A DNA stretch of 64,000 nucleotides, from contig CM119372.1 of the NCBI GenBank assembly GCA_051294905.1, positions 13,828,001 to 13,892,000 of the forward strand, written 5' to 3'. This document shows positions 18,978 to 64,000 of this stretch, one piece after another (position 1 is the stretch's first letter; each line of letters starts with the position of its first letter). Origin of the DNA: Botryllus schlosseri. Its lineage: Eukaryota. Below the pieces are notes generated by a model, which was not told the DNA's origin, made no database searches, and saw only the letters and a list, made by a program, of their open reading frames with translations. The translations under genes and the position numbers were made by a program.

Positions 18978-19225
18978 TTAAATAGTATATATTCATATTG
19001 AAATGAACCCGAATATTTTCGGCTGACACTCGTCAGGGGTAATCGTCAGCAACTAGTAGAGAATTGGAAAGAACATTGTATATCAACAATCGTATCACAA
19101 AATATGACGTCACGATTGTTGATATACAATGTTCTTTCCAATTCTCTACTAGTTGCTGACGATTACCCCTGACGAGTGTCAGCCGAAAATATTCGGGTTC
19201 ATTTCAATATGAATATACTATTTAA
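18978..19225. repeat. Near-perfect ~250-bp palindrome (fold-back MITE) bounded by TTAA
   Basis: Arms of about 115 bp are reverse complements apart from a 2-nt indel, with an ~18-nt spacer (atcacaaaatatgacgtc). Confidence 0.9.
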
Positions 19226-22275: not shown

Positions 22276-23470
22276 GTGTCGACACAAGCAAATCTCACGC
22301 CTCAGTGAAATTGTATCACGTCACAATTTCAATCTGGCTACAGGTAATTTGACGGTCATTTTTGACTGGCTTGACGAGCATTAAATTGGGTAAAACGAGT
22401 ATCAATCGAAAGCTGACTCTGCATTGATTACGAAAATATAAATTTTATTCCGCTCGTGTACCTGGAACTCCCACAATCAGCCTCGAATTTTTCATTGTTA
22501 TGAAGATTGGCATTGGGACGCAACAATGGTGGCTGGGTCTTTTTCTCTTGAGCTACTCTCTCGTTTCGCCAGACAGCATTGTTGCGTCCCAATGGCAATC
22601 TCCATAACAATGAAAAATTCGAGGCTGATTGTGGGAGTTCCAGGGCCACGAGCGGAATAAAATTTATATTTTCGTAATCAGTGCAGAGTCAGCTTTCGAT
22701 TGATACCCCTTTTACCAAATTTAATGCTCGGCAAGCCGGTCAAAAATGACCATCAAATTGCCTGTAGCCAAATGGAAATTGTGACGTGATACAATATCAA
22801 TGAGGCGTGAGATTTGCTTGTGTCGACACCATGCATATAGGACACTATGCTTTCACGCCGCCCAAGGGGGCACGCCCCTAGCCTACGCCGATGCGAGCTA
22901 GTCAATGCGGTGTCCGAACCCTGCCCTGGTGTTGAATATAAGAGGGCAATTAGTGATTGGACGATGGACGCGCGCTTTCCAATTTTTAATCATCAATTTT
23001 GTGTATTCATTCTTGTCTGCTTGATACACTCGTATTCCTGAATTGTCGAGCAATATGTCACTTGCGAGCTTGCAGTGTAATTGGTTACCGACTTGTACCG
23101 TGCACGGCGTTGAATTAAGTACTCAGATATTGATGCACCACCAGATTGTCAGTGGCACTAATTTCGAGTTTATTCGATTCGTTTGAAGGGGAACCTTCCA
23201 TCCATACTCCACTAAACTTGATCGACGACGAAAGGACTGGTAACGAGCACACCAATATCGAATTTGAAGCCATTGGGTATATTTGGTAAAAAATGGATTT
23301 CTGCCGATAAGGTCGCGACATGTGCTCATTTCTGCAGTTACATCTGAACAAATCGCACCATTTCAAGATTGAAGTGGACTGTATGGTTTGATATTAACGA
23401 GCGCTGTACCGGTATTAAAACATCACGTCACTGTTTTAATGCTGTACCATGTGTGCAATGTAGCCTACAT

Positions 23471-26211: not shown

Positions 26212-29200
26212 TCAATAAGGCTGGAATTTCTCTCTCTTGGTTTTTCTCTTCTCTTTGCCGTTTGGGGAAGCTTCTCCCGTGCCGGTAGAGTCGTCGTCAT
26301 CACAGTCAGATACTTTAGGTTCCTGTTCTTTCCTGGACGGAGGTCGCCTCTGGTGTCTCGAGCGACTTGAATGGTCTCTGTCCGAGTGACGCGACCGGCT
26401 CATGAACATATTACGAGCCGACTGCATTGCGGCAGTGAACGAAGCTGACGGGTTGATTCCCAGAGCACCGGGATATGGCCCGGCAAGTCCTTGCCTGCCA
26501 AAACTTACTGGCGACATATACCCCATTAACTGAGCAATCGGTATGGGCTTGTTTGATGGAGATGTATTTAAAGACATCAATGGCCGAGGACTGGAAGAGG
26601 TGGGTTCTTCGTCGGCGGGCGGTGTTGGCTTGGTTTCCTTTGTTTGGTGGGAGAAGAGCTGAATGCTGTGTAGTGGTTTGGACATTGAATGGAGTGTATG
26701 GAAATCCATCAAGCCGCACATCGACCGGGTGAGGAGTAGGCAATGGTGGTTGTTGAAGTTGTTTGGTAAGGTAGCAGGTTGGTACCGGGAAAGAAAACGC
26801 ACAGGTTAACAGGAGTAGTAGCGGGTGATAATTCGAGCTAGAGTATACAGGTGGAGCACGGGTTTAGTGATATTTGTCGACTGCCTTAGCATACCGCATT
26901 GCTTCATCAATGAGAATGAACAGTGAATCACAGAAAAACGCGTAATTTCAAGGCATTTTGAAGATAATGGCAGTAATCAATCCGAAGTGACGAGTAGAAA
27001 TTGAAATTTGACAGGCTTGGACCATATTCAGAATTTCTCGTTTTTTGCATTGGAAACACGCCAATTAGGTAGGGCAGTTGGCGGGGGGACTGAATTCCAT
27101 TCATTAAAGTTCCAATCACATTAACACGGTGCAGTGTAACAAGATTATTGTGTCAGGTTTATTCATCTCAAATACATTACTTCGTGAAAGCGTGCGATTT
27201 ACATTTGCAATTCATCTTGACTTTCTCAACAGTACACACACCATACCAGCACCAGGAGCCTCCTAATGGGATATAGGTAGCCACACAGAACTTGACTTTT
27301 TGGTCATAAAGAAACAGTATCACTTGTTCTAAGCGATAAGAATAGAGTGTACCCGAACGCTAACCACCTTCTAAAGTATCGATAGCTGTGCAACGCAAAA
27401 GAATACAATTTTACAATACAATTATGAGCTGCCGTGGACTGTGCTAGAGACGAATACAACAGGCTCTGTGGTGGAATTTCAGTTCGTTCAGTATTACTAG
27501 ATCACTGCTGCAGTCATTTGTCTGGTCTCGTGCACTATTGTTAGTGTCTTTAACGTAGCACAAGGCTTATCACCCGGGCATTGCCTCATTGATGAAGTAA
27601 TTTACTAATTTTGTGTATTTTCATATGAGCACCTAATATATTGTGGGTAAACGTAGCAATAATCCGGATTGCTACAAGGGTAAACAAGCAAAAAATCAGT
27701 CAAGAGCGGCTGGTACAGATGAATAGGGAGGAAAATGGGATAGCGTGATGTTATACTGATCAGCTGCAAAACAAAAAAGTATCTTGTAGCTTATGTCCAC
27801 CCAAGTAAGACACCAAACCTGGTATTGATTAAATATTGCGCGAGGCTGAGCTCCTCCGGACTTCCGATGATTGTTATCGTACGCTCCTTTTTACTGACTT
27901 TTTCTGTGCTTCTGTCGATGGATATCTGAGCGCCCGACATTGCACGGATTTCATTGATCCGACAGCCCATTTTTCCAATGATGCATCCAATCACCTAAAC
28001 GTAGAGGTGGTCAAAGTAGTCAGTGCTGGTACGCAAGTAGAAGTAACAATGTAATTTTCTATTTCATTGCAAGTAGAAGCAGCTATTTCTAAAACATGTC
28101 GAAACTAGCTCAAGTGGAAGCAGAAAATGCAGGTCTTGATGGTACTTAGTAAATAGTTTCACAAAGTTGATTCGGTAAGGGGTCGAATACTTTCAGCAGT
28201 TAATAAAGTGGGTGTCTGATCTCAAAGACTACTCCAAGTCGTATATTGCAGTCTTGTGGTGTTTTGGAATGATGAAATTTTAATAACTAGCTGAACTGCT
28301 AATTTTGGAACTGCAGGGACTAACGACACACAAATAGGTAAATTTGTCCAGTTCTGTGATGAAGGGGCTATTTTGAACAGTTATGAAAAATAAATTCATA
28401 TTAAGTGATACGAGCATACCCTAAAACTACTTTCTAGTTTACAAAATACAAAGTGTAAAAAGTAAATAGTTTTCCAAAAAATTGCATGTAGAAGTAGTGT
28501 AAAAACAACCACTTACTTGCTACTGACAACCTCCGCAGCAACGTCCAAAATATGAGATAGCACATAAGAGCGACATAAGCATATTTCAAAATCACTTTCT
28601 AGTTTTAGAGCAAAAGTGTTATGAAGTAGCTTACATAGTTTTTCAAAAAACTGTGAACTGTAGTGTAAAACATAATCACTTAATTTAAACATGCAACCAG
28701 GCAAAACCTACTTGGTATGTAATTGTATACCTGAATAGACGACAAAACGCGTCGCATGTAAAAATACATTATCGTTACCTCATTAGACACAGTCATTTCC
28801 TGGGTTTTCGCGTCGACAATTTTCGTGGGGAAATTCGCAAATCCCGATGAGCGTCTCTCCGTTTGCCCGGAGGACCTGTCAAAACTATTGTTATTCAAAT
28901 GAGTGAAATTGCCAAGCAGACTGCCCAGGGTGTCTTCTGTATACGAGCGCATCGTCGCTAAATGCCGCAACTTCGATATCTGCTAAAAAACATTGATTAC
29001 CATCACTACTTTGCACATTATCTCACAAATCACGAGTTTACATCAGGATTGGGCACTGCATAATTGCCTTGCAATGTGTACGCTTGACCCTGGTGATATA
29101 TAACAGGTGGAGTGGCAGGCTGCGGCTTGTAAGGTACTGTCGCGGATTTGGCAGGATACTTCAAAATTAGAAGCAATTAGAAGAATAAAATTGAAGGCAA

Positions 29201-30451
29201 CTTCGGTAACTTACCTGAATCATCACATCACAAAGCATATCAACACAGTGAGCTATGGCAGCTGGCGTGCCGTTCAACGTAACTGCCCTTTCGGTCGAAA
29301 ACGGAAGCATATCAGATTGCACTTGTATTGAACACGCCGAGGTCTATTGAAAATAATCACGTGTGAGCGTTTGTAGCTTGCCTGATACACGGAATCAATT
29401 ACGTCGCGAATTTCCTTGATTTTGCTGCCGCCGCGACCGATGATGGAGCCACATTGACCGGCTGGAACAATCAATTTTAATGTCACAGGAACTTTAGCAG
29501 TGCTTGATGCGGAAACATTTGCATTCATTTCCTGTAATGGGCCATTAGAATAAAGGACAGCACGAAACATAGCGTGAAATCTGCGCTTTACCTGCTCCAA
29601 CTTTTCTGTGATTAGCATAAATCCTTCTTTCACCTGATGCTGATGCCCGGTGATGGTAACGATCCTTTCTGGTGTTCCTGTAGAGCTGGGAATATTGATT
29701 TTCGCTCCGCATTTTTCACGGATACTCGCTATCACACTTCCACCCTAAACAAATTGAAGCGTGAGATGTTTGACAAGGTTTTAGACTTCACTTAAACAGA
29801 TCAAGGATTCCATTCATCCACACAAGTCATACCGTATATATTGTCATATTAATTGCCCAACGTTCACATCACCCACATAATTGACCAGACCAGTTCATAG
29901 CAATTCACCTGTTTCTCAAGTATTTGGGGTATCAATCTACAATAACTCAACATACAAATATGCCTGTAGCTACATTTGAATATTTAGTAATAAATCAAAT
30001 GCTGAATGCAGAAGTAACCCAAGCAACAGTATTCCCAGTCTATAGCATCCTATACCGATTGTATTTTACTCAGCGTTGATGAGTATATCAATCAATATAT
30101 ATAGTGCAAGCACATTTACCATTGCAAGTCTACTTTCCGATTACAATATCTCAATTACAGTGACCCATTTCCACACTCTATCATCAGTGATGGATGACTA
30201 ATGACTATAGCTAAATACACTATTCGGCATAATAACATTTGGCCTGTGTGAAGAAAACAGCATTCACTATAAGCACTAAAACGGAGTTCCCTATTCCACA
30301 GACAATGTCAGTACGATAATAAACAAACCCTCATATAACGTACACACACTTTACAAAGAATTGCATTTACCTTTCCAATTATGGCTCCGATCTCTTTCCC
30401 AGCCATCGACACGCGTATTGTTATGGTTACATCAGCTTCGCTGGTGGTCAT
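26212..30451 (-). CDS. PCBP: Poly(rC)-binding protein (PCBP / hnRNP E / mub-like), three KH domains, long PCBP4-like C-terminus
   Basis: Phase-consistent exons: 30371-30451 (MTTSEADVTITIRVSMAGKEIGAIIGK), 29592-29744 (GGSVIASIREKCGAKINI..PERIVTITG), 29403-29531 (VPVTLKLIVPAGQCGSIIGRGGSKIKEIRD), 29215-29343 (..QVQSDMLPFSTERAVTL), 29042-29158 (YPAKSATVPYKP..GQAYTLQGNYAVPNPD), 28779-28979, 27819-27994 (VIGCIIGKMGCRINEIRAMSGAQI..LSLAQYLINT) and 26212-26665 (..KREKFQPY*). Minus-strand AATAAA at 26196-26201. Confidence 0.93.
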
Positions 30452-31149: not shown

Positions 31150-31485
31150 GGGTAGGGTAGACCGTATACGGATATTAGGGATGGGGGCGGGGTATTAGGG
31201 TTGGGTTAGGGTCAAGATTGGGGTTAGGATATCCTAAGATTAGGGTTGGGAAAAGGGGGTATCAGGGTCAAGGTTGGGGTTAGGATATCCTGAAATTAGG
31301 GTGGGTTAGGGTCAAGGTTGGGGTTAGGATATCCTAAGATTAGGGTTGGAGAAAGGGGGTATTTGGGTGGGTTAGGTTCAAGGTTGGGTTTAGTATATCC
31401 TAAGATTAAGGTTGGAAAAGGGGTTATTAGGATGGGTTAGGGTCAAGGTTGGGGTTAGGATATCCTAAGATTAGGGTTGGGGGTG
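31150..31485. repeat. G-rich tandem minisatellite with telomere-like TTAGGG motifs (about 45-70-bp units)
   Basis: About 5 copies of TTAGGGTCAAGGTTGGGGTTAGGATATCCTAAGATTAGGGTTGG..AAAGGGG. Confidence 0.85.
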
Positions 31486-33183: not shown

Positions 33184-33470
33184 GGTGGCTAGATAGCGTA
33201 GTGGTATAATCCACAGCTACAACATCAATGGGTTGTGGGTTCGAGTCCGACCGAGGTCGACTCCAGAATTCCTACCTAAGTGTTGGAGGTTTATCTAGGC
33301 TCCTCCTCGCCATCTCATCCGCGCAAACGGTGTCTTAAAAGAACGGACGCGGGCCGTGCTACAGGTCGGCAGCTACGAAATCAAATAATAAGAAATATCT
33401 GCCCGTGTAAATGACCATTCTAGTCGACAAACACCATGAATACACCACGAACAAACAAGCAAACAAACAA
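33184..33470 (+). mobile_element. tRNA-derived SINE, full length
   Basis: A box TAGCGTAGTGG (33194-33204), B box GGTTCGAGTCC (33238-33248), (CAAA)n tail, 11-bp TSD ACCATGTTCTC. Homologous copies at 46891, 60881, 51436/53726 and 62300. Confidence 0.88.
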
Positions 33471-41895: not shown

Positions 41896-42457
41896 CATAG
41901 TGTCCTATATGGTGTCGACACAAGCAAATCTCACGCCTCAGTGAAATTGTATCACGTCACTATTTCCATTTGGCTACAGGCAATTTGACGGTCATTTTTG
42001 ACCGGCTTGCCGAGCATTACATTTGGTAAAACTGGTATCAATCGAAAGCTGACTTTGCACTGATTACGAAAATATAAGTTTTATTCCGCTCGCGGCCCTG
42101 GAACCCCCACAATCAGCCTCGAATTTTTCATTGTTATGGAGATTGGCATTGAGACGCAACAATGCTGTCTGGCGAAACGAGAGATTGGCCTTGTTGCGTC
42201 CCAATGCCAATCTCCATAACAATGAAAAATTCGAGGCTGATTGTGGGAGTTCCAGGGCCACGAGTGGAATAAAATTTATATTTTCGTAATCAGTGCAGAG
42301 TCAGCTTCCGATTGATACCCGTTTTACCAAATTTAATGCTCGGCAAGCTGGTCAAAAATGACCGTCAAATTGCCTGTAGCCAAATGGAATTTGTGACGTG
42401 ATACAATTTCACTGAGCCGTGAGATTTGCTTGTGTCGACACCATATAGGACACTATG
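41896..42457. mobile_element. Family-Y fold-back MITE, intact (P-element-like)
   Basis: Almost wholly palindromic 562 bp, CATAGTGTCC...GGACACTATG, 7-bp TSD GTAAAAT. Confidence 0.9.
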
Positions 42458-44999: not shown

Positions 45000-45294
45000 G
45001 CGGTCTCGTTTGACCAGACAGCATTGTTGCATCACAATGCCAATCTCCATAACAATGAAAAGTTCGAGGTTAATTGTGGGGGTTCCACGGCGATGAGCGG
45101 AATAAAATGTATACTTTCGTGATCAGTACAGCGGTAGCTTTCGATTGATATTCGTTTTGTCAAATTTAGTGCTCGACAAGCCGGTCAAAAATTACCGTCA
45201 AATTTCCTTTAGCCAAATGGAAAGTGTGACGTATAGACCAATCGCAATGAGCCGTGAGATTTCCTTCCGTCCACACTATATAGGAGACACTATG
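45000..45294. mobile_element. Diverged right half of a family-Y fold-back MITE
   Basis: Similar to 42190-42457, ends GAGACACTATG. Confidence 0.7.
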
Positions 45295-46890: not shown

Positions 46891-47160
46891 GGTGGCGAGA
46901 TAGCGTGGTATAATCCACAGCTACAACAACACCAATAGGTTGTGGGTTCGAGTGCGACTGAGGTCAACTCCAGAATCCCTACCTAAATATTGGAGGTCCA
47001 TCTAGGCATCTCATCCATGTTAGCTGCAGTCTCTTAAAAAATACTAGAAGTGGGCCATGCTACAAGTAGGCAGCTTCGGAATCAAAAAATAAGAAGTATC
47101 GGCCTTGTATAAATGACCATTGTAGTCGACAAACACCATGAATAACACAAACAACAATAA
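46891..47160 (+). mobile_element. tRNA-derived SINE copy
   Basis: Homologous to 33184-33470, B box GGTTCGAGTGC, 3' end AGTCGACAAACACCATGAATA. Confidence 0.8.
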
Positions 47161-48861: not shown

Positions 48862-49905
48862 CAGAGGTGGTCAAAGTAGTAAAGAAAGCTACTCAAGTAG
48901 AAGTAGAACTAGAACTTTTAAAAGCAACCTAAAACTGCTTGAAGTAGAGTTAGAATTTCCTGACTTTAAAATCGACTCATGTAAGCAAGTAATTATGAAA
49001 ACGGTCATAATTCGGTTGCGCGGACGGTCAAAAGCTGCAAATTGAGCTATGTGGAAGGTGTAGAGAGCTTGATTCATATTGATGCATCCCAGGAGGCATC
49101 AATTTTCGACAGAATAAGCATTCGTCCTCATCATGGCATGGCGCCCTCCCCATGTTATAAGGCCCGTAGTTTAGTCGAAGAGCAATACGGTGGAGTGGTA
49201 TCGGATACGGTGTTAACACTTTGCGCGAATAATAAACGTTAATAAAAAATATGGCGGATCGTAAATATTCCATATAGTGTTCAACATATATGTTCTCCAG
49301 ACAAAAGAACTGAAACTAAGTAGAACTCAAAGCATGACACTAGGAATTGAGAAAAAAATACAAATACTACTTCTAAGAAGTGGAAAATATATTTCATGTC
49401 TTTTGTTCAGAAAGTTTCAACCTTGGTCTGCTAAAATAAATCTAACGCTCAATCCACTCAATCCACATTTCCAGATTAGGACACGGGACGGGTTGCTAGA
49501 TTACGATGTGATAGGTAATTGCTAGATTGAGAAATAGTAGTTTCAAACGTTATGGTGGGCCATATTTGTTGTGATTTCATATGGGCGACAATGCGGTGTG
49601 AACGGAACCACACAACCCGCTACCCGCTACTAAGCGCGGCGAAAATTCTGGTCTTTACCTAACTTTTATGATAATCAAATGTTGGTAATCCGTGAAAACA
49701 GCCCCGAAATTATTCAGGCTATCTTTCTGATTAGAGGATTAAACTGCTTCTGCTGAAAATAGCGAAAAGTAAATAAGTAGATGACATAATTTGACGAAGT
49801 AGAAGTATCCGAAATTTTATTTACTTGATTAAGTACCGCAAGTAGCGGAAAACTACTTGAGCACTTCGAAAAAGTAGAAGTATACTTCGTTACTGACCAC
49901 CTCTA
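48862..49905. mobile_element. hAT-type MITE with AAGTAG subterminal repeats
   Basis: TIRs CAGAGGTGGTCA...TGACCACCTCTA, perfect TSD CATGCTGG. Confidence 0.85.
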
Positions 49906-51497
49906 CATGCTGGTCGGCAAGCACTATCAACAGATGTCCAAGTGATGACTTATTTGCCATTTTGAAAATCACGACGGTATTTCCTATCACACTCATCTAT
50001 CTATCCTCGGGGCGTGTCAGCACACTCAGTTCTCTCTTGCCAGTTGCAATCTTCGGTTTCGACGTCATCTATAGGGCTATTCGAAGACATCACACAACAG
50101 ACTTCCTATTTGATGCTGCTGTATCAGTACGCCTAAATTTACGAGAAACCGATGGGTAGTGTTAGATAACGCAGCCTGCAGCAACTTTTGCCTTTGTATT
50201 TTAGTGTTGCTGCTCTCAACAAAACGCTTTTTGCAGTCATCGTTCAAGTGTGCAGACTCCTTGATTGCGTCCGGATTGTACCAGGGACTCCAGATAACTG
50301 ACATGATGAGGTTATGTCACGGAAACTGCTGTCCATTACATTGACATCAGAGCTGAAGTCAAACCCATCCCAAACTTTGCCAATATGATCAGACATAGAC
50401 ATGCAGTGTTAGCCTACAGATCCAACAATTTCCAAATATGTACATTGTACAAGTTTTCTTTAAAATATTTGAAGCAGTGACCGTATGTTCTATATATAGT
50501 TCTGCGCATTTACAGGCATCACGCAGGTGCACCCGACACCGACACGCTCGATTTTGGTGTAAGTGACGCCGTCGGCCGTTGTGACACGGAATTGTCTTGT
50601 CTCTGTCAATTGGGACGGTATCAAATTAAAGTTTGGACTTTTCGTAAGGGGGTCGGTGCAATAGGTTGTCTGTGCACACCTTCGATCCTCGCGATATTGT
50701 TGCTGTCTGGAACACAGAGACGAAGACTGTTAAATACAATCCAGCTTTATGTTCGAATATACGTATGACCCTACACTACATATCCATACACAAAAATTAG
50801 TACATCAAAAAGAAGAAGTACTTCGTTACTGACCACCTCAGCCCAGGGCTCCCCTGGAGGTCTATCTCCTATATTTATAATCTCTTTTGCAATTAAGCAG
50901 TTATTATCACGCTACTGCGTTTCGACGGAATAATACGATGTCACTTTCCAATGGAAAAGCCTCGTATTTCCTAACTAGTATCTGAAAGGGAACAGAAGAA
51001 GTCGCACTGATTTGCAAGAAATACTCATTATACTGCTTTGGTTTCGTGTGAAAATCATCTTTGAATGGTTTTGTTCTTTTAAAACTATGTTGACTTGATA
51101 CACATTGAACAGTTCATTTTGCGCACCTGTAATCTATAGTAATGTATATTTTCGATGATCATTGTAGTAGTTATTTGTTTTTATGACTCAGGGAAAATCT
51201 GGTGTTCCCCAGGGTACGGGTTGATAACCACTGTTCTGTAGTCATTGCTCCAAATGACAGAGTTTCATTCAAAATATCACACAGAAATGCATTCAAAGCC
51301 ATTAAGCAACCAGCAATGAGAATCCATACTTGATTACAGACGATGGTATTATACGTCACTGATCTTTCAAACAAGTTTTACTGTCAAACTATACTCAAGT
51401 AGATTCTGAATTCCTACATTATAGATCTACTTTAGAATTGCTACCTAACTGTTGGAGGTTTATGTAGGCTCCTCCTCGCCATCTCATCCGTGTAAGC

Positions 51498-53725
51498 CAG
51501 AGGTTCTCAAAGGGTGGGCCACAGGAGTAATTTGGGTGGGCCACAGAGGTATTTGAAAAATTGTAGAATTCGTGAAGTTTAGTTGCATTTTTCTTTTGTT
51601 CATATATTTAAAAAATATATCGATGTTATCGAATTATCCGTATGCTACATTAAGCTTTTCACCTGACTCTGGCGAGACTTAGTGGTACGTATGGAGTCAC
51701 GAATGTACCAGTCGAAATGGGTGGGGATACGGCGGCTTTTGTACCCCCAGCTATGACAACCTCCGGCCAACAGCAACGAAAATAATTTCGAATATTTAAT
51801 AACTGAAAGTTAATGCTGAAATATCCAAGTATTCCGGCTGGGTCAAAATGGATTGAGGAGTTGGCACAGCACATTAATCTTCGGAGTCGGCCTAAAAATG
51901 TCCGGCCTTGAAATCATTGTACATAATGTAAGAGTCACATGAATTGGTGGTATCATTGGATTTAATGTTATTACATCGTAACTTCAAAAGGTACAGGACA
52001 TATATTAGGTAGGACCAGGGCCGTAACAGCACTTTGTCAGCCCCCCTCCCAAAAAAAACGTTGGTCTTGGGCCCCCCATACGATGATAAATCGAACTTCT
52101 GGGGGGGGGGCGTTAGCTGAATCAGCTTTACTCGCCTGCACGCGCGAAGCGCGAAAAAATTATATAATTCATGATTGAATCGGTCAATATGATCGGGAAT
52201 TTAATACATATTGCTATCAAATTTTATCCTCTCTCTGCTCACGTAATCAGATTAACAGGTGGAGCTAAGTGAGGTGTGTTTGAAAAGGTAGGCCGTCAAT
52301 AATAATTAAACATCTTCGGGCGTATACCCGTTGGCAGGAACGAAACAGCACTTTATCAGGCCCCCCAAAAGACTTGGGTCTTGGGCTCCAATAGGGTGAT
52401 AAACCTTCCCCCAATCACTTTGTTCGCTTTTACCGCGAAATTTTTGATAATTCATGATAAAATCGGTTAATAAGATCGGGAATTGCATATATGTTGCTAT
52501 CAATTTCTTGTCCTCTCTGCTCACGTAATCAGTTTTACCGATAGAGCTGAGTGAGGTGTTAAGGAAACTGTAGGGACCGTTGGTATGATGGTATTTCGTG
52601 ACCTCCTGTCTGCTATATATCAAAAATATAGAATCGCACAAACGTAGGCTACTAAACTAAAAGATGCACACGATTTCAAATTGGTATGTTTTCACTGGCA
52701 TATAATTTTCCCTGCGGGATGGTATTTGTCTTGTGAGGTTCAGATTGCCATGACAGGAACATTCAGCGTCTGTCATTTAGGTGCCTTATTAAACCTATGT
52801 GCATTTTGTATATATAACGAAGTTTTCGGTCATCATAATGGCAGTCCTTTTCGGCCAAGGTTTCTCGCTGTCGATCGTTCTGACACACTCCTTGGAGTCG
52901 CATGTTACATGGCCTAAAACTCTATATGTCTTGGTGCATCGTGGCCCGGTAATGGCCAACGCCGATATGCCCATTTCTATAAATCTTGCGTATTATTTCT
53001 TGGGGGAAGAGTACCCGAAAATCAAGATACTTGGCAACTTCAAATCACACGTAGCGCGAAAAGTTTTTGAAAAAAGTTGCATAAATTATCAAAAAATACT
53101 CTATAATTTATGCTAGTTCACGAAATAATTTTTGGCCCCCTTCGAGCTCGCCCCCCCCCCCAATTGGGGGGTTTGGGGTGCGGCAGTTACGGTCCTGGGT
53201 AGGACTACATTGTATTCTTCACTTCTGTTTAGTATCCCATTCAACAAAGAATTGTTTGAAGCGGGCCCAGAATGGGTATAATATTCCCCACCAGAGTGGA
53301 ATTAAACCCCCCATCACACAGTGAATGCGGGGATCGGATCATTGGGTTTGGCGACTTGAGTGGAACAGAGGATGTACGCAAGAGTTGTACGATATTGCTG
53401 GGCCGTAACTTTCGCACCCCTCACCCACAATTGAGAGAGCTCTAAGTTGCTAATAATTATTTCGTTGGTTGTCTGTTGGAGATTTATTTACCTTGAAAAT
53501 TTTCGTCGCGCTTCGCGCGATTTCATGTTCCCTCAGATCGACATTTAAATATGAACACTGAACAGTAATAAAAGCAAAATGCGTATACTAAAGAGAAATA
53601 GCCATATCGGCGGCGATTAGCATACCACACAACACATTGAAATGCACCATGACTTAAAAAGAGGTGGGCCACAGAACATTTTCAAACCGGAAAATGGGTC
53701 ACAGCCAAAAAATGGCTGAGAACCC
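51498..53725. mobile_element. hAT-type MITE inserted into a SINE and itself interrupted by family X
   Basis: CAGAGGTTCTCAAA...TGAGAACCC, TSD GTGTAAGC. SINE halves at 51436-51497 and 53726-53830. Confidence 0.75.
52016..53197 (-). mobile_element. Family-X hAT-type element, uninterrupted copy
   Basis: TIRs CAGGGCCGTAAC...GTTACGGTCCTG, perfect TSD GGTAGGAC. Reverse complement of 19611-22275 without the LINE. Confidence 0.88.
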
Positions 53726-54838
53726 GTGTAAGCGGTGTCTTATAAAAGCCTTGAAGAGGACCGTGCTACAAGTCGGTAGCTGGCGTATACAGCCAAAGTA
53801 GTCGACAAACACCATGAAAATACCACAAACAGCAGCAACTCCAGTAGCTATGTCTTTAGGCCATCTCCCACTTCACTTCAACATAGTTCTTTTCGATAGC
53901 CGAAAAAGTCATTGTTTATGGATGGCATAACGTAATAGACTAGTGAAATCGTCGTAACCATCGGGAAAATCCCCCTATATTTCCGATCACAAAGCATACA
54001 GTGATGTAGGGCTATTGGCTTGGTATAGCATCGTTCATGTGTTATTCATCGGTAAGCAACCACCAGGCTATTGGAAAATAATATGCTAGGTCATATCGTC
54101 CCAACTACTCGGATACATTTTCGACAGTTTGTACTTATACTTTAAACACATTTTAGTCGATTGTCTGGTTGTCGACTGTCTGCATGTACAATTGTCCAGC
54201 CAAGCATATACTTCCATCTGAGAAGCAACAGTGACGTGGCCATTTTATAACTACTGTTAAAAATGAATAGGATCTGTCGATAATGTCGTGTACAGCACCA
54301 GGCAAAGGCCTTTGACTCGAGCGAGCATTAGCATATGTGATCAATATCACAATTTCCAAGTCCGGCAACCAATAGAAAGTGTATTTCGAATTGGCTGCAT
54401 ATCGTGACATCCGGACGTAGAAGAAGATGACTTTATAATGGTAAGGTATAATGTCGCTTTGATTAGTTTGAAACCAAATTTGAACAAAGGCTCCTTGGCA
54501 TACTGTCACTAATGTACAGAAACTACACTAATTGATTAAGCATTTTCGTGAGACAGTTAGCGTTGATTTGGCTTTTGATAAGGATATAGGCTTTGGACAC
54601 TGTGTTTACAAAACCTACACAATGTCCTTCACATGTAAAGCATCCGGTCAACTTTTTTCTGGAGTCGATGCCGCCGCTGATTTGGGTTTCACAGCAAGAC
54701 GGTTTCAATAGTGCCATTTATATCGATGCGTTGGGTAATCCCATCCACCGCTATGACTATACACTATGTCTAGTCCTAAAGTTCCAAACGAAGCAAGTCA
54801 CCTGCTATGATTCCTGTGTATATGTTGAAAAACCTCGG

Positions 54839-54973
54839 TGTAGTGGTAGCTCTATGGCGCCACTAGGGTGTGACGACATCGCAGGTGCTTCGGTGCTTGG
54901 TCGTCACTGAATACATGGCTGCTTGAGAACTCACGTCTCGTATATTAGACAGACCGTCAGTCACGTTACTACA
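54839..54973 (+). mobile_element. Short (135-bp) LTR of a Gypsy-type retrotransposon
   Basis: TG...CA ends with terminal inverted repeat TGTAGT/ACTACA, internal AATACA, immediately followed by TGGTGGCAGC (tRNA-Leu primer-binding site). Confidence 0.7.
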
Positions 54974-55017
54974 TGGTGGCAGCAGTGGGATTCGAACCCA
55001 CGCCATCGAAATGACTG
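54974..55017 (-). other. Reverse-transcribed 3' half of a mature tRNA-Leu (extended primer-binding site); not a functional tRNA gene
   Basis: Minus strand reads CAGTCATTTCGATGGCGTGGGTTCGAATCCCACTGCTGCCA-CCA: 3' anticodon stem, long variable arm, T arm, acceptor strand, discriminator and CCA. No 5' half. Confidence 0.8.
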
Positions 55018-57957
55018 TGACACTATGAAATATGCGTCAATCGAGTCAGTAGATGTTGGCCTATTTTACTGCGCAATACTTCTACTTTTTCTACATACTA
55101 AAGTAGGTTTTACCAACTTGAACTTCTTACTTTAACAGTTTTTAGGCATTTTTACATATAGGATTTTGAAAAGTAGAAGGTAGTTTTGAGATTAGTTGGC
55201 ATCAATTTTCTGTGTGAAATCGTCCTAAGAACGGTGCGAACTAGCCATCAAATGAATTGCCGAATATAGTCTCGAACATTGTGTCTATTTGTAGCGAAAT
55301 TAGTTATATTGCGTTAGTCGCGAAGAAGAATTTTGCAATTTCAAAAGTATATACAGCCCCACATCGATTAACCGCCAAAAGTCTGCGAACCTTTGACCAA
55401 ATATATTTTTCTACTCCATACTTGAGTGCTTTTCAGGCTTTCCGTTTCTACTGCCAATTGAATTATTTTGACACGTTTTGGAAATCGCTAGTTTTACTTG
55501 TACTAGAGTAGAAGTTTACGGCGTTAATTTTATTTCTACACTCAAGTATCAACGGTGGCTATACCTTAACAACTTTTGGTTCTTCAAAGGTACAGGATCA
55601 CGCGTGAATTTACGATTACGTAGGCTGTGGTCATATTCAGGGTAAAAGCAGCCTCCAACAAGAATATTGCCTTAACAAAGGCGTTTGTGACTCCATGTTC
55701 TGCTGCACAACAAAATAGCCATCCAGCGGTAATGTCATATTACTGCGCACAGCCACAACTGTGCGTCTGAAGCGAAATAATTTCTGGACTAGAGCGTAAC
55801 TTTCCCCAATTAATCTCACCTTAAGGACTTGTTTAGTTCTACGTGACTAACAGTCAGTATCATTAGTCTGATTTGGCGTAATTACAACATTATATTTATG
55901 TGTAAAAGGTATTGGGATTCAATCTCTATTTATTGCCGTTCTTCTAAGAATTGTTGCAGATCTCGCACATGCCACTGTCAAGCTAATGACAATAGGGCCG
56001 AGCAGAATGATTCGAGCAATCGTGATGATGAGTGTTGAGTTGTGCGAGAAATTATTCCGGTATTAAAATTATACGTCCTTCCCACTAACAGTTATGTTAA
56101 CAAGGGAACTATAGATTCGATAGCTTTTTTCCCATTGTGAAAGCCTGAAACCTCGATTGGTCGCATCAAAGTATCACAATCACAATTCACAAACATGTAG
56201 TACAAAGCTAAGTTAACGAAAATGATATTCCTGTGAAGTCATGTTCAACCCACAGCATTGTCACAAACAGTCATGGTAGAAAAACATAGCAAATTATTAT
56301 CTTAAATGTTCTGTATGGCATTACTTTCTTTGCGTTCGCATATTTGAAATTTCCACATCATCTTTACACGTATGACGCCATAGTGAATGATACTCGACTC
56401 GAAGCCTAATATACGCGATTCAGAATAGAATAACTCGTCATTTACTCGATTTTGCCCAGCCCTTACAATATGACATAGACAAAAGGCGGGAAAACTATAT
56501 ACCGTCCGTAAAACTTCTTGTGCGACCAGCCAAATCTTCAGGTAACAACTAGAAATGTTGCCTGAAACTTTTCAGAATATATTTCGTCGTTTTCGTCCAG
56601 TGGTTCCGAAAAGGAGCGATTTTGGGAGGCGCGGCGCGAAATATACAATTGGGGCAATTGGGGGCAGAAAATGTACGAAGAGGGGATATGGATGGCGAAA
56701 ATGCCAGGACTTTCAGTTATTTATATTCAGTTAATTATTTATTCAGTACCACGGAATTTTATCAGGGGTTCTCTGTGAACACGACTGTGAGCACGAACTT
56801 CTATCGCCATGTGACGTAACATGGATAATTCCAAGCAAATGTACCATTTCCGTCTCACCAGACGTAGATATCTTTATACTAACGCGTGGATATATACATA
56901 CCTATAGGCCAAGCACGTAGCAGTGACGGAAGCCAGTCATTTTATTATTAACAACTTTCAAGTAGTGTGATATGTCAAAGGAAATTCTCAAAACACGGTG
57001 TAATTTGTTACGCTACAAGCTTCCTGTTAGTTTTGTGTTGAATTTCCTTTGCTGTCATCGTGAAATCCCAGGACGTTTGATCATTGATGTTAAGATTGCT
57101 GGAATATACTGGCATTTAAAAATGTTTACAGGGCAGATATTCCCCGGGCGAACGCGAACTTCTGAATAATCTAGGTTCTCACACCGAACACGAACGTGCG
57201 GAACCGAAAGTTCAATGCATTCCCACTGCCGGTTAAGGTTTATTGAGTATTATAATTACAACTTTCACAACAGTGCATGTTACCTTTCCCATCAATAGTG
57301 ATGCAAAATCACACATTTAAAAGACCGCTTCTGGTCATGTCATATGTAGGCCTACAAGACTAATCAGTTAGCAATATTAGATAAATCAGGTCTTTACCCC
57401 CTTTGCGAATAGATGGAGCGCATTAAATAGAACATTTGTGAAAGATCTAGTCATAGTTGGAAACTAATATGCGTATCTGAGAATGTAAGACTTGGTCGCG
57501 TGAAAATATTCGACAATACTTTTCAAGACTACAGTGGTAAAAGAGAACACGAGAGTATATGTTTTATCAGTGGTTCCCAACCTGGGGTCCATGGACGCCT
57601 TGGGGGTCCGTGATTACCATGGTGTTTTTTTTGGGAAAACGAAAAGCGGTATTTTTACCATTATTTTAATTTGCTGGCATGACAATTTGTGTCACCTTTT
57701 TATTTATATCCCCGAAGAAAACGGATAGGCGACGGGTGAATATGACCTAACAGTGCGAGGGTCAACTCCCACTAAAATCCTCTGGCCCCCTTCGCCTGTT
57801 GTGCAGATGTAGCGAGTTGGTCGTCAGCCTATCTTGTGTTTATTTATATATATTTCCCTATTTTAGTATTAGGCCAATGTCAATTGATTATTTAATTTTA
57901 TGCCAATGGTGTATTCAAGTTTTGTTCTTTCGTTCAATCCGTTGTTTTTCTTTCTTT

Positions 57958-58000
57958 AACAACAACAACAACAACAACAACAATAACAACAACAACAACA
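57958..58000. repeat. (AAC)n microsatellite, probably a retroposon tail inside a MITE (57568-58158)
   Basis: About 14 AAC units. Flanking CAGTGGTTCCCAACC...GGTTAGGAAACACTG TIRs. Confidence 0.75.
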
Positions 58001-59261
58001 AATTGACAGCCACAGTACATTAGTTGACTATAGCATAATTATTACAATAGTCAATATTATGTTAATCGAGTTTCAGGCAAAATTTATACAGGGGTCCGCA
58101 GAATTAATAATAACTTGTCTAAAGGTGTCTGTGCCAACAAAAAGGTTAGGAAACACTGTTATAGTATATAGCTATATCGTCGCTGTGGAATGAAAGCATC
58201 AAATGTCCATTTTACACATTGTAAGAAAATTAACGTTGTGTAAACTTTCTTCAATTTCTTGGCCAAGATTAACTTTAAACAACGCAATAAACGTAAACAT
58301 GGCTATGATATGACCGAAAAAATATGAAAATTTTACATAAAATTCATTTTCTATAAGATAAAAATGGACACGAGTTACTTTGATTCCACCGCAACGATAT
58401 TTCTAATTATCCATTCACCCACCCATATACCTCCATACATATAACAGTTCTACAAAAAGTTACGTTTGTTACCTGTCAGGACAATAAACTTCGTACTTTG
58501 TCACCGGCGACCAAGAATTCCTCCATTCAATTCCTAAGTATGTTTCCGTACATGGCCTCTCATCGGAATATCTGTAGAAATTGGCAACATAATCACTATA
58601 ATCGTTATAGTGCGACGACTGACGTATATAACTAGAGTTGCATTTAAAACAAACGGTGTTTTAAAACACCAAGTTTGAAACATGTTTTAAACAAAGGCCT
58701 TTATTAAAAAAAATCGTGTTTTTAAGTTGTAAAATAATGCCATAATTGTGTAAATACTTTCCAAAATACATGTTGTATGAGCCTACGGACAATTACCGTC
58801 CGATTTAGCCGACGTAGAACCATATGGGATGGCTGGAACCCTCAAAATAGTCGGTTCAACAGTTATAGTGCAGATATTTCGTTAAAGGAGCTATAGTTAC
58901 CTCAATGTTAATCCATTATGACGTCACAAAAAACGCTTAAAACGCTTCGGAGTTGGACAAGAGAGCCAAATGCGTTGGCTTTCTTTTCTGAAAGTATGAC
59001 ATCAGCTGAAAGGATCTAATACATTAGCCTAACTAAGATTACTGTTGCACAAAATGAGCTGTGCATCATCAGAGTGTTAAGATAACAAAACCATTAAAAT
59101 AACATTTTCAGACAAAGCGAAAACATTATAATAAATGTCTTGCTTCAGTTAGGATATTGCGATACGTTGAGTATAACACCATGTCAACCTATTTGATTCC
59201 ATTTGACCGTTCATGATTGACAATGAGCAGACAATGGGCCGTCTACAACGGTTGGCCTATA

Positions 59262-60487
59262 GCAGGGGTGGGCAATTATTTTCCTCCGGGGGCCAAATGA
59301 GAAGCATATGTTGGCGGGCCGAGAAATTTTAGCTGTATTCTCCAGCGTATTGATATTGAAATCATCAAAGCGTACCGTACCAAACTATAAGACGCACGCG
59401 ATTCCCAATTGATATTTCTTCACTGGAAAATATTGCATAGTGACAATCGGACATCGTGGTTTTTGGTCAACATGGGAGCAGTCCTTTTGGGCCAAGGCTT
59501 TCTCGCTGTCGAGCTTATACGTAGTTAATTTGATCAACAGTTGAAATTGGACTGCCTTCTCAGAATCCCGTCTTGGCCTAAACTTCATATATCTTGGTAC
59601 GTCGTGGCGCGGTAATGGCTGACGCCGAAATACCCAATTCTATAACCATTGATCTTGAAATCGCGCCTAGCGCAAGAAAAATTTGAAAGAAGTTGCATAA
59701 ATTTCCAAAAAATACTCTATAATTTATGGTCATTCACGAAATAATTTTGGGCGCCCTTCGAGCTCGCCCCCCAATTGGGGGTTTGGGGTGCGGCAGTTAC
59801 TGTCATGGTATTGCTTTAAAGCTTATTGTCTTGGTAGCTGGTTTCCGAGAAGTGTGCAGCTTGCCGAAATGGCCTTGTTGTTAAGCCAAGCTTGCAGTTA
59901 TTCCGAAATTCGCCATCCCTTGATCGAGTGTAGGCCCTATGTCTTCGTGCTTTTGACATGGAACTGACTTGAATAATACTCCTTGAACACGGCGACGTGC
60001 TCGGCATTAACTACTAAAAAGACTGGTAATAATCAAATATTTAGTCCTCCGAACCATCTTTGAATTTCAACTTTCGGCTTTCTTTTTTGACATCCTTTAT
60101 GGGTGGTGATATACTCAGAGAAATCACGGACAGTGAATGACTTGTTAAGGATTTGGAAACACAGACCGTGCAATTCGTAATGTGACAATGGCAACAAAGA
60201 AGGTTTGGTGACTTCTTGTGACTTTAATTGTAACGGCATAATTTGCTACGTTGACTTTACTTTGAATCTAAATTCGGCACGTGAGGTGCGTATAGGCTGC
60301 GTAATTGCGGCATGTTAATGAACTTGAACATGCTTGATAGTAAACGAAATTCCGGTTCAGATAATACATCCTATGGTTTTAGTCCACGCAGCAACATTTA
60401 AAAGTAGGTTTTATATCTTCAATTTCAAGCAATCTTTCGCGGGCCGCACAGAATAGCTCCGCGGGCCGCACTTTGCCCAGGCCTGGC
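59262..60487. mobile_element. hAT-type MITE containing a family-X fragment (~59470-59805)
   Basis: CAGGGGTGGGCAA...TTGCCCAGGCCTG, GCGGGCCG motifs. Confidence 0.65.
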
Positions 60488-60880
60488 CTGGCTACGAGAT
60501 GTAAAATATCGAACGAAGTTCATCGACAGTGCAAAGATCTACGATACAAAGGAAGTGCAGCTAGCAAAAAAGTTTTTGACTTTGTAAACAATTTTGACTA
60601 TTTTTTGACCTATAACGCTTCAATTTTGACAATATATTTTGACTTTTTTGCAATGTGAAAATAAAAATCGCCTTACTTATAACTGAACCTATAGAAATAT
60701 TGGAGATTGGCATTTCAGAACGACGGAGTTTCGATTTCGAACCCAAACCTCACCTGCGTACGCCACTACACATGCGCGCGACTTATACCACCATAACAGT
60801 CACAATTCGACTCCTGAAGGAGCCTAATTAACTGCAACCAATGATGACCAAGACGGGAGTATCGTTACAATTCATCTGTA

Positions 60881-61162
60881 GTTATTTGTTTGTTTGCTTC
60901 ATGGTGTTTGTCGACTACTGTGGTCATTTACACCAGGCCGATACTCTTCATTTTTATTCCGTAACTGCCGACTTCTAGACACGGCAGACACGGCCCATTC
61001 TTCTAGGCTTTTTGTAAGACACCGTTTACGCGGATGAGGTGGCGAGGAGGAGCCTAGATAAGCCTCCAACCCCTAGGTATGGGAATTCTGAAGTCGACCT
61101 CGGTCGGACTCGAACCCGCAACCCATTGGTGTTGCAACCGCGGACTGCGCTATCCCGCCACT
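60881..61162 (-). mobile_element. tRNA-derived SINE copy, full length
   Basis: Reverse complement of the 33184 family, B box GGTTCGAGTCC, 13-bp TSD ACAATTCATCTGT. Confidence 0.87.
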
Positions 61163-62895
61163 AACAATTCATCTGTGTGAGTTGAATGTCTTGACCTCCA
61201 GGGACCCCCACACACTGTCTCAGAGAACACCTGGTGTTCCATGGAGAACCGGTTAAAAACCATTGTGTCATTGAAGAGTGGCCCTGTTGCAGATGATATT
61301 TATCTACTCGAAATGCAGGATAACAACATTCACACTACTGTAAGTGTAGCAGATAGATAAATCGCGCGCGCCTTGTTTATCTCTATGATCCAAATTTCGT
61401 GAATAGGAGACAATGTATTACCGTTTAGCTGGCTTCGTCAAACCACTTCCATAAGATATTATTCGAACAGACGGCTCATCTCTTCGCGGGGAAAACGGTC
61501 CTGATGCATGCTTCAGTAAAACGACCAGGACACAAAGCTGTGCTAATCTCCATGTCATGATAAAATCCTCCCTTGCTTACACGGACAGTTACTAACCACA
61601 ATGCGGTCGCTTCCCAAATGATAACGTATCGTGAGAAATTTTTTCACCTTCAATCTATCTATTGATAGACTACTTACGTTGGCAGAGTAACAAATCGTTT
61701 ACTCGACGTATGTATTTCATGACTATTAATTTAGTCACGTTTATTTGACGAAATGTTTGTTATGTCCGCTTGCCTGTCAGGTTTTGGCACGGGCTTGGTA
61801 TTGCTGTCTGCTTCGTCCTATAATTCTACCTTTACGATGTCCGCTTTTGTTGGCATATTGGAAGTGAAACGTACTACAAGCAGAGGCAGACCGCGTATAG
61901 GCGATTGCATTACATAACTGAAACATGTCTGCCTTGCACGCGACATTAGCAGCCATCACAGGATAATTAGTTTACGATAATTGCTCCCAGTCTGACACTA
62001 TCACATGTCGCATACATGGATTGACGGAAAGAAATATGTGTCTGGACAACAGTTTGAATCAAACCCATCACGAAACAAATGTCCAACAAGGAGTTGAGTG
62101 GCTCAGCTTGCGTGAAATCAGTTGCGACTTCATACAGCGTAGTTATACACACAATTTTTACTACTGGTACGGTCTGTTACGCGGACTGAGTTCAGCATAC
62201 TGCATTCACCAGTTCATGGTGCCATACAATACAATAACAACGTTTCTGTCATGATTGAAAAAGTGTCTATCACCAATGAATTAAATAGCTGATTGCTGTT
62301 AGTGGTATTCATGGTGTTTTTCGACATAGTCATTGGTCATTTACACCAGGCCTGTATGCTAGGCCTTTTAAGACATCGCTCACGTGGATCGGATGTCGGA
62401 GAGGAGCTCCAAGAAACCTCCAACACTGATCTTTGATTAATGACAAAACATAAAATAGAAAATTTCGCAATAATGCTGACACCTCCGAATAGAACCTATA
62501 ATAAGTCTCCGTCACATCACGGATAGATTATGAATAGCATTGGTTCTCCCTATGGCGTTGTGAAGTCACAAATTTATATCTTCACTTTTTGCTCTTCAGA
62601 TTTCCTGTTTTCTACTGGCAATGGATCTTCGTTTTACCTAAGAACTAGAAACTGCGTGAGCGAATAACTTGTATATCCCGCTTTCAACCACAGTGCGATG
62701 AAATTCAAGTCAATGTCATTTTCCATTACTATAGGATTTATGAATCCATACAGATTGATATAAATATAAATGGATCACCTACAACCTTATATAGGATACC
62801 ATATACATGTGGTTAGTTATGTTCTACATACTTGCACAATATGAAGCGTACAATGTGCAGCATGTACTATCTGTTGTACATGTACAATTGTATAT

Positions 62896-63741
62896 CAGGG
62901 ATGTCAAACTCAAATTGCGTCGCGTGCCGGATTCCAGCCTTCAAATCGCTCGCGGGCCGGACCAGTCAACTGATTCCAAAATGTTACCTCGTGCACTTGG
63001 TTTTCACTTGAATACCTCAAAAGCATATATAATAGATAATACACGGATCATAAGGTTTTTAAAGTAGCAAGTCGCGACACTTTTATTCGCGAATAATGAA
63101 ATTGGCAAAAATACGATGATTGTCCAGTTAAATACAGTTCAGAACTGCTAAAACAGTGGCGGTAACAACGATAAAAATTGGCATATTCTATACTCCCTTT
63201 GATTTAGCCGTAATCTGGCGTTAGCTCTGCATATGCGATGTGAGAATTACAATATATTTAATTGCAAACGCGGACGTTGCAATTTGGTTTATTATTATTA
63301 CACCGCGAGTCCGATTTCTCTCATGTCAGGAGATCTATTGGGTCCAAAGTGACACAGCAGTACAACTCTAATGACTAGAGATATTTCAATTATATATTTC
63401 TGCAACTAATGTATTTTCGATCTAGACCGCATATAACGGCTTCGCATTGGCGTTTTCGCTTCTGTGAAGTACTACTTTTTGGTCCATATTTGTGCAAAAC
63501 TCTGAACTTCAGTGTGTACCTATAACTTTCTTGAAATTGGATGTCAATTTCACAGATTTGTTGTTACTATTGGTAACTAGAGTGAAACCACAGCCGTCGT
63601 CGGGTGGTTATAATGGTGCCTATTAACAATGGAGGTATTTCCTGCAACAAATCTCAACATTTGTTACAAATGTGCTGGAAAATATAAGGATTTTTCAATC
63701 TACTCAGAATTGCTTCGCGCGCCGTATGTTTGACACCCCTG
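62896..63741. mobile_element. hAT (Buster-like) MITE
   Basis: TIRs CAGGGATGTCAAAC...GTTTGACACCCCTG, TSD TTGTATAT/TTGTACAT. Confidence 0.82.
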
Positions 63742-64000
63742 TTGTACATTGTACAACCTGTGGAACTTAATGAGTTTTACCGATGTCGTCATTCTAGCGA
63801 TGTATAAGTTGTGGAAGTTGTGATTTCTCTTATATCCCTTATTAAGGGCACAGTAGGGGAGCACATATTGTGTCTTCACGTCAAATATCAGGTGCGCGAT
63901 ACATGCACGTTCACCGGTTATCCAATTAATAACCTCTATGACCCAATCAACAATCTTTCGAATGCCTTCATTGGCAAGCATGAGTCAATTGAAACTGCAT

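What the first reader, a model, noticed from the sequence alone, without database searches (positions are those of the whole stretch)
54839..55017. Lone LTR fused to a 44-nt copy of its mature tRNA-Leu primer (read-through past the normal PBS)
Seen: a 135-bp TG..CA unit with TGTAGT/ACTACA ends is followed directly by the complement of CCA, the acceptor strand, T arm, variable arm and 3 nt of the anticodon stem of a tRNA-Leu. No gag/pol, second LTR or obvious TSD follows. Established: eukaryotic tRNA genes do not encode CCA, and plus-strand strong-stop synthesis normally halts at m1A58 after 18 nt, which limits the PBS length. Inference: this may be an integrated plus-strand strong-stop intermediate in which RT read through A58 and stopped near the anticodon loop. 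That would record a hypomodified primer or a 3' tRNA half used as primer. Alternatively it is a small LTR-tRNA chimeric element family.
Basis: partly seen in the sequence, partly recalled or inferred. Interest (0 to 1): 0.7.

Follow-up and report, generated by a model that had tools for sequence, protein, structure and literature searches.

The report
Retrotransposon end fossilising its tRNA primer
A lone end of a young jumping gene, in a probable sea squirt genome, is joined directly to a backwards 44-letter copy of a mature leucine tRNA, likely a dead-end product in which reverse transcriptase ran past its usual stop on the primer; it is a replication accident rather than a new kind of element.

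Summary
A 135-bp TG..CA unit (54839-54973) is followed with no spacer by 44 nt antisense to the 3' part of a Leu-type tRNA, CCA included, which is 26 nt beyond the 18-nt primer-binding limit. Public reads show the unit is a real, young, many-copy LTR: sharp left edge, a polypurine tract before TG in other copies, and a candidate capped start inside it. Here there is no TSD, second LTR or coding interior. Contigs of two samples leave the flank exactly at TG, as an empty allele would. Best reading: a plus-strand DNA that overshot A58 on its primer, ended near the anticodon stem and was inserted without normal two-ended integration. Not tested: the family's normal PBS length, the host tRNA-Leu set and the letters of the empty allele. 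One copy cannot show primer hypomodification or a tRNA-half primer. Overshoot is known for HIV-1 in vitro and in cells. My searches found no paper on genomic fossils of it, but this scan has noted them before, in this genome (e1-7804496) and in others (e1-8648906, e1-8610053). Modest interest.

The parts
54839..54973 (+). 135-bp LTR of a young, many-copy LTR retrotransposon family; 6-bp terminal inverted repeats
   Evidence: 563 contigs of run X2 laid on the stretch, 376 of them 99% or more alike; one X6 contig with a purine tract before TG is identical over 127 of 127 nt
54839..54905 (+). likely U3 (67 nt)
   Evidence: inferred from the candidate RNA start at 54906
54906..54973 (+). likely R-U5; candidate capped Pol II start at 54906 in a C-A initiator context; weak AATACA hexamer at LTR nt 72
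   Evidence: 6 X23 reads start here behind template-switch-oligo-like letters with one extra G (oligo identity recalled)
54974..54991 (+). 18-nt primer-binding-site length of the copy (tRNA positions 76-59)
54992..55017 (+). 26-nt overshoot: complement of A58, rest of the T arm, variable arm and about 3 nt of anticodon stem; A58 copied without a mismatch
54400..54838 (.). single-copy left flank; contigs of two samples follow it to 54838 and go on with other letters (likely empty allele)
   Evidence: tables 2 and 8 (X2 record 3, X5 record 13)
55076..55535 (.). old diverged dispersed repeat in the right flank, unlike the interior of a young family
   Evidence: 59% over 486 columns to 28035-28509 and 74% over 54 to 49830-49883

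Best explanation
The locus is one complete LTR fused to a reverse copy of the 3' 44 nt of a mature tRNA-Leu, and is likely a dead-end plus-strand cDNA of an LTR retrotransposon that was inserted once, recently, without normal two-ended integration. Shown: the family has a PPT abutting TG; the unit is the whole LTR from its first base; the tail starts at the CA, includes CCA and passes A58; there is no TSD or interior. Inferred: (1) tRNA-Leu is the family's primer. (2) PPT-primed plus-strand synthesis copied U3-R-U5, read through A58 and the T and variable arms, and stalled near the anticodon arm, perhaps at modified G37 with about 3 nt lost on joining. (3) The 26 extra nt could not pair in plus-strand transfer, so the molecule was a dead end. 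(4) This LTR-length DNA was joined cleanly at its U3 end (integrase on a double-stranded U3 end, or precise capture at a break) and by host repair at its tRNA end, which explains the missing TSD.
For: Anatomy. True LTR with PPT in other copies: 15 RNA reads in X23 and a contig in X6 end in 11 purines before TG. Youth: identity over 127 of 127 nt to that X6 contig, and contigs of X2 and X5 that leave the flank exactly at 54838. A young insertion with a 135-bp LTR has had little time or homology for LTR-LTR recombination (inference). The right flank from 55076 is an old repeat. Precedent for each step: HIV-1 minor products stopping at position 37, and read-through when m1A58 is low (PMC13191261 section 10; PMC8599865 passages); dead-end plus strong-stop DNA accumulating in Ty3 particles (PMC5371799 section 2.2); Ty1 3' LTR cDNA pieces captured at breaks, 40 of 56 with cDNA-only letters (PMC11372161).
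Against: The PBS length of normal family members was not seen, so the tail is not shown to be copy-specific. No listed contig in X2 or X5 crosses the flank-LTR junction, and depth at 54800-54819 equals that of the single flank contig; the tool warns that such holes prove nothing, but the insertion allele is not independently confirmed. The letters that follow 54838 in those two contigs were not shown, and each has 2 unlisted differences. The end near position 41 is not a known RT stop. A58 is copied as A, with no misreading signature. The host tRNA-Leu set was not available.
Confidence: 0.55

Rival explanations
1. The same overshoot happened at the right end of a full-length cDNA. The U3 end was integrated normally, the tailed U5 end was joined by repair, and LTR-LTR recombination or truncation later left one LTR plus the tail.
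For: An exact TG left end is what integrase leaves. Primer-derived single-stranded tails at cDNA ends and TSD-less, truncated insertions are reported for Tf1 and HIV-1 (PMC11042837, passages and Discussion). The final product would look identical.
Against: It needs a second event in a copy that looks very young and has only 135 bp of LTR homology.
Confidence: 0.2
2. The long match is inherited: a family or subfamily fixed a 44-nt PBS after an ancient overshoot, and this copy is a 5' LTR that lost its interior, 3' LTR and right TSD by deletion.
For: Not excluded; reads over the tail were not examined. An unchecked note of this scan reports such a family in another genome (e1-10321918).
Against: It needs a deletion that ends exactly at the end of the tRNA match. 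No coding or young interior sequence follows, although the first 55 or so bases after the tail are unassigned.
Confidence: 0.12
3. A normal cDNA annealed by its single-stranded PBS tail to a pre-existing, 5'-truncated, CCA-bearing tRNA-Leu retrocopy (Tf1-type integrase-independent insertion), so most of the tail is older than the LTR.
For: PBS-homology-directed insertion with truncation is shown for Tf1 (PMC11042837). A CCA-bearing tRNA-Gly copy was found next to an HIV 3' LTR in one cell clone (PMC12220202, section 14).
Against: It needs a rare retrocopy exactly here. No other tRNA remnant lies at the locus. The LTR's left end is intact.
Confidence: 0.05
4. The primer was a 3' tRNA fragment of about 44 nt (a tRNA half), copied to its end.
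For: The copy ends a few bases from the anticodon loop. 3' tRNA fragments can prime RT in vitro (18-nt case, PMC11251516 passages).
Against: Halves end in the loop (about positions 32-37, recalled), not in the stem. A half would still carry m1A58. HTLV-1 uses the full-length tRNA.
Confidence: 0.04
5. The join is an assembly or library artefact.
For: No junction-crossing contig was listed in X2 or X5.
Against: A DNA library has no ready route to a CCA-bearing tRNA copy in exact PBS geometry. Short low-depth branches into a very high-depth repeat are easily dropped from contig graphs (inference).
Confidence: 0.04

Closest known systems
Over-extended plus-strand strong-stop DNA of HIV-1 (products P1 and P5; PMC13191261 section 10; PMC8599865 passages)
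   Same: U3-R-U5 followed by a copy of the primer tRNA that passes A58 and ends near the anticodon arm; unable to complete plus-strand transfer
   Different: There it is an unintegrated product of a retrovirus, described as unable to integrate. Here it sits in a chromosome, comes from an invertebrate retrotransposon and ends near position 41 rather than at 37.
Dead-end plus strong-stop DNA of Ty1/Ty3 and capture of Ty1 cDNA pieces at double-strand breaks (PMC5371799 section 2.2; PMC11372161 section on Ty1 cDNA)
   Same: LTR-length replication intermediates that are displaced, accumulate and can be inserted without a TSD
   Different: Ty3 copies only 12 nt of its primer. The sections read do not describe a long tRNA tail on the captured pieces.
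Integrase-independent Tf1 insertion through PBS/PPT tails (PMC11042837)
   Same: A primer-derived single-stranded tail at the right cDNA end decides the junction; no TSD; truncation
   Different: Tf1 is self-primed and its tail is the element's own PBS. Here the tail is host tRNA beyond the PBS, and homology to the target was not testable.
Helenus / TRIMp3 (PMC10886601)
   Same: Short LTR next to tRNA-derived sequence; tRNA-Leu PBS occurs in some animal families; a box-A-like motif lies at LTR nt 9
   Different: In Helenus the tRNA-like part is inside the LTR with boxes A and B. Here there is no box B in the LTR, the tRNA copy is outside it and antisense, and the candidate RNA start looks Pol II-like.
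Classical solo LTR
   Same: One complete LTR without interior
   Different: No TSD, and a 44-nt primer copy is attached.

Membership tests
LTR of an LTR retrotransposon | TG..CA ends with short inverted repeats | tested here: met
   6-bp perfect terminal inverted repeat
LTR of an LTR retrotransposon | Dispersed many-copy unit with a sharp boundary | tested here: met
   summed contig depth 11 on the flank against 13,000-44,000 on the unit in X2 (not a copy number); loose ends with mixed flanks before 54839 in 4 of 4 runs. The right edge was seen in only one X2 contig.
LTR of an LTR retrotransposon | Polypurine tract directly before a 3' copy | tested here: met
   11 purines before TG in 15 X23 reads and 1 X6 contig
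LTR of an LTR retrotransposon | Pol II start inside the LTR | tested here: inconclusive
   6 reads in one run start at 54906 behind oligo-like letters with one extra G; an extra G marks capped RNA (PMC7370879 passage); the number of distinct molecules is unknown
Ty3/Gypsy superfamily | RT phylogeny and pol domain order | not testable with these tools
   No genome held; no loci from collection scans. Gypsy is only a guess from the spacer-free tRNA-Leu PBS (recalled).
Classical solo LTR (LTR-LTR recombination of a normal insertion) | 4-6-bp TSD on both sides and no primer-site sequence | tested here: not met
   No TSD at the LTR end or the tail end; 44-nt tail attached
Over-extended plus-strand strong-stop DNA | Starts at the first U3 base, whole LTR, then the complement of CCA and more than 18 nt of tRNA | tested here: met
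Over-extended plus-strand strong-stop DNA | Tail longer than the PBS of normal family members | not testable with these tools
   No intact 5' LTR junction was seen; reads over the tail were not examined
Over-extended plus-strand strong-stop DNA | Tail absent from the pre-insertion allele | tested here: inconclusive
   Two contigs leave the flank at 54838 and run on 412 and 94 letters, which were not shown
Over-extended plus-strand strong-stop DNA | End point at a modified base that blocks RT | tested here: inconclusive
   End near position 41, about 3 nt short of a stop before 37; host tRNA unknown
Helenus (TRIMp3) | tRNA-like sequence inside the LTR with box A (TRGCY..YGG) and box B (GGTTC) | tested here: not met
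   Box-A-like motif at LTR nt 9 (694 of 20,000 shuffles also have one); no GGTTC on either strand; no Rfam tRNA match on the LTR at E<=10
Helenus (TRIMp3) | Two LTRs, short interior, 4-bp TSD | tested here: not met
   One LTR and no TSD at this locus; elsewhere the family's interior is at least about 280 nt (X6 record 18) and otherwise unknown
tRNA gene or tRNA-headed SINE | 5' half of the tRNA with box A, complete cloverleaf | tested here: not met
   ARAGORN 0 genes; Rfam matches only the T arm

The most novel reading that the evidence does not exclude
This young, expressed family routinely pairs with, or copies, 44 nt of tRNA-Leu, through a fixed long primer site or a 3' tRNA-half or A58-unmethylated primer pool in the germ line. 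Its LTR-plus-tRNA mini-cDNAs would then be a mobile class of their own, whose end points map primer modifications in the host.
Probability: 0.12. Interest if true: 0.65.

Novelty: new variant of a known kind. Interest (0 to 1): 0.35.

Why it matters
Over-extended plus-strand DNA is described as unable to integrate (PMC8599865 passages). A chromosomal copy suggests that such dead ends do reach the germ line through non-standard joining. Collected genome-wide, their end points and misreadings could report tRNA modifications and RT stops from assemblies alone. One copy by itself has no likely function and cannot establish a modification state.

Tried and rejected
No whole genome was held, so copy counts and PBS lengths could not be measured. 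Exact-pattern scans for the family found 0 loci: viral contigs, metagenome contigs and prokaryote genome contigs. No RNA holder of 53800-56200 was listed; its small-share rows were not used as evidence. A look-up of the LTR sequence in earlier findings found 0 look-alikes, and 0 notes lay near the window. The 179-nt unit has no unusual fold (z -0.69). Fold-back priming was rejected: the last 6 nt of the tail pair with U5 at 54958, but the sequence after the tail does not continue as inverted LTR. Helenus was rejected (no box B). Insertion beside a tRNA gene was rejected (no 5' half). Pfam scans covered 51 of the 59 ORFs of 60 aa or more in 50000-64000 (49, 2) and gave one sub-threshold DUF hit and no retroelement domain; 8 ORFs starting before 55245 were not scanned. 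Searches that found no paper on chromosomal LTR-plus-overshoot fossils (listings only, open-access library). No supplements were read, and those of PMC11372161 or PMC11042837 could hold tRNA-tailed inserts.

Full report
1. Observation. The sequence is as described. 54839-54973 is a 135-bp unit with TG..CA ends and a perfect 6-bp terminal inverted repeat. It is followed, with no spacer, by 44 nt (54974-55017) antisense to the 3' part of a tRNA. Numbered from the 3' end, the copy has CCA at 74-76, discriminator A73, a T stem with 5 of 5 pairs, T54-T55-C56, A58, and 15 nt 5' of C48. A long variable arm with A73 means Leu rather than Ser (established knowledge); the isoacceptor was not determined. 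Taking 12 of the 15 nt as the variable arm (recalled architecture) puts the end near position 41. The copy therefore runs 26 nt past the 18-nt limit set by m1A58, and A58 is copied without a mismatch. There is no 4-6-bp TSD, no second LTR in the window, no tRNA gene, and no Pfam hit in the 35 ORFs of 60 aa or more that start after the tail.

2. Host. The window is animal DNA of about 40% GC, rich in dispersed repeats. The nearest named relative of a KH-domain exon is a Styela clava protein at 54% identity (11 hits, the two best unnamed), which suggests an ascidian. No genome was held, and five collection scans returned 0 loci.

3. The unit is a real, young LTR. Four public runs of the same species label were laid on 54400-54973. 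Summed contig depth is 11 on most of the flank and 13,000-44,000 on the unit in run X2, and 59-286 against 25,000-52,000 in X5. The tool says these are not copy numbers, but the step is sharp at 54839. Of 563 X2 contigs laid, 376 are 99% or more alike. Loose ends before 54839 are mixed in X2 and X5 (agreement about 0.5), as expected for many insertion sites. In 15 RNA reads of X23 and one X6 contig they end in 11 purines directly before TG, a polypurine tract. That X6 contig is identical to the window's LTR over 127 of 127 nt and has about 280 nt of upstream interior. Six X23 reads begin at 54906 (LTR nt 68, a C-A initiator context) behind letters that look like a template-switch oligo (recalled) plus one extra G, a mark of capped RNA (PMC7370879 passage). 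This is a candidate U3/R boundary from few reads. The family is transcribed in at least one run (46 reads laid from about 6% of the run).

4. The insertion looks recent. X2 record 3 and X5 record 13 follow the left flank to exactly 54838 and continue for 412 and 94 letters with other sequence (table 8). That is what an empty allele would give, but the letters were not shown and each record has 2 unlisted differences. Against my reading, no listed contig crosses the flank-LTR junction, so the filled allele is not independently confirmed. The right flank from 55076 is an old repeat, 59-74% like two other places in the window, not the interior of a young family; the 55 or so bases between it and the tail are unassigned. 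Reads over the tail and right junction were not examined, so the family's normal PBS length remains open.

5. Mechanism. Plus-strand synthesis starts at the PPT, copies U3-R-U5 and then the primer tRNA. In HIV-1 the major product stops before m1A58, minor products stop at 55, 54 and 37, and unmodified tRNA is copied fully (PMC13191261, section 10). Products that run past 54 cannot pair in strand transfer and are described as unable to integrate (PMC8599865 passages; PMC11251516 passages). In Ty3 the tRNA-copying plus strand is displaced and accumulates as a dead end (PMC5371799, section 2.2). Ty1 3' LTR cDNA pieces are captured at double-strand breaks, 40 of 56 with cDNA-only letters (PMC11372161). 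Tf1 can insert without integrase through primer-derived tails (PMC11042837). The locus matches such a molecule base for base: first U3 base, whole LTR, CCA complement, overshoot, then host DNA with no TSD. I commit to a one-off LTR-length dead-end cDNA joined cleanly at U3 and by repair at the tail (0.55). Rivals are the same overshoot on a full-length copy later reduced to one LTR (0.2), an inherited 44-nt PBS with deletion of the rest (0.12), annealing to an older tRNA retrocopy (0.05), a tRNA-half primer (0.04) and artefact (0.04). Overshoot of a mature primer underlies the first three. The end near 41 is about 3 nt short of a stop before position 37. The next four bases, read as positions 40-37, would place a G at 37, which is a one-in-four coincidence unless the host tRNA confirms it. 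Hypomodification cannot be inferred from one copy.

6. Comparison. It works like an over-extended plus-strand strong-stop DNA. It fails the test for a classical solo LTR (no TSD, tail attached). It also fails the test for Helenus/TRIMp3 (PMC10886601: abstract, Results part 1 of 2 and section 3.6 read): a box-A-like motif lies at LTR nt 9, but 694 of 20,000 shuffles have one, GGTTC is absent, and the tRNA part is outside the LTR and antisense. Placement in Ty3/Gypsy could not be tested. A CCA-bearing tRNA-Gly copy beside an HIV 3' LTR in one cell clone (PMC12220202, abstract and section 14) is a related junction, but not of the primer tRNA.

7. Novelty. Nine searches of the open-access library (listings only, except the papers named above) gave no description of chromosomal LTR-plus-overshoot fossils. 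Subscription papers and supplements were not seen. This scan has noted the same phenomenon before: a 55-nt tRNA-Leu copy in this genome (e1-7804496), a solo LTR with a 39-nt tRNA-Pro copy (e1-8648906) and others. These are unchecked notes and I could not test them. This locus adds one young example with good evidence that the unit is an LTR, without the genome-wide counts that would make it informative. Verdict: real, a new variant of a known replication by-product, interest 0.35.

Noticed in passing
window 54906 (+): Candidate capped transcription start inside the LTR: 6 RNA reads begin here behind template-switch-oligo-like letters with an extra G, in a C-A initiator context.
   Followed up: partly
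window 54847-54857 (+): Box-A-like motif at LTR nt 9 without a box B; about 3.5% of shuffles have one. A long G+C-rich hairpin follows at about LTR nt 32-69.
   Followed up: partly
window 54958-54963 and 55012-55017: The last 6 nt of the tRNA copy are complementary to U5; probably chance, though it could have favoured stalling at this point.
   Followed up: partly
window 33184-33343, 46891-47033, 51423-51495, about 61009-61116: Dispersed repeat family carrying a T-arm/box-B-like motif at 33238 and near 61116; candidate tRNA-derived SINE. Further motif hits at 23754 and 33891.
   Followed up: no
window 18988-19217: Perfect inverted repeat of 106-nt arms with 18 nt between them; likely a very young MITE.
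   Followed up: no
window 22274-22832 and 41896-42457: Two copies of a fold-back element with 260-280-nt arms, 92-96% alike, and a partial third copy near 45004-45277.
   Followed up: no
window 31151-31481: Degenerate array rich in TTAGGG-like units, period about 65-100 nt, in the middle of the window.
   Followed up: no
window 19784-20915 (+): Non-LTR-type reverse transcriptase fragment split over two frames (RVT_1, E 3e-19).
   Followed up: no
window 29274-29744 (-) and 5886-6362 (-): Exons of a poly(rC)-binding KH-domain gene and of an MFS transporter.
   Followed up: partly
window 54400-54838: The left flank is highly polymorphic: run X5 shows two haplotypes with 16 listed substitutions and several indels against the window.
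   Followed up: no
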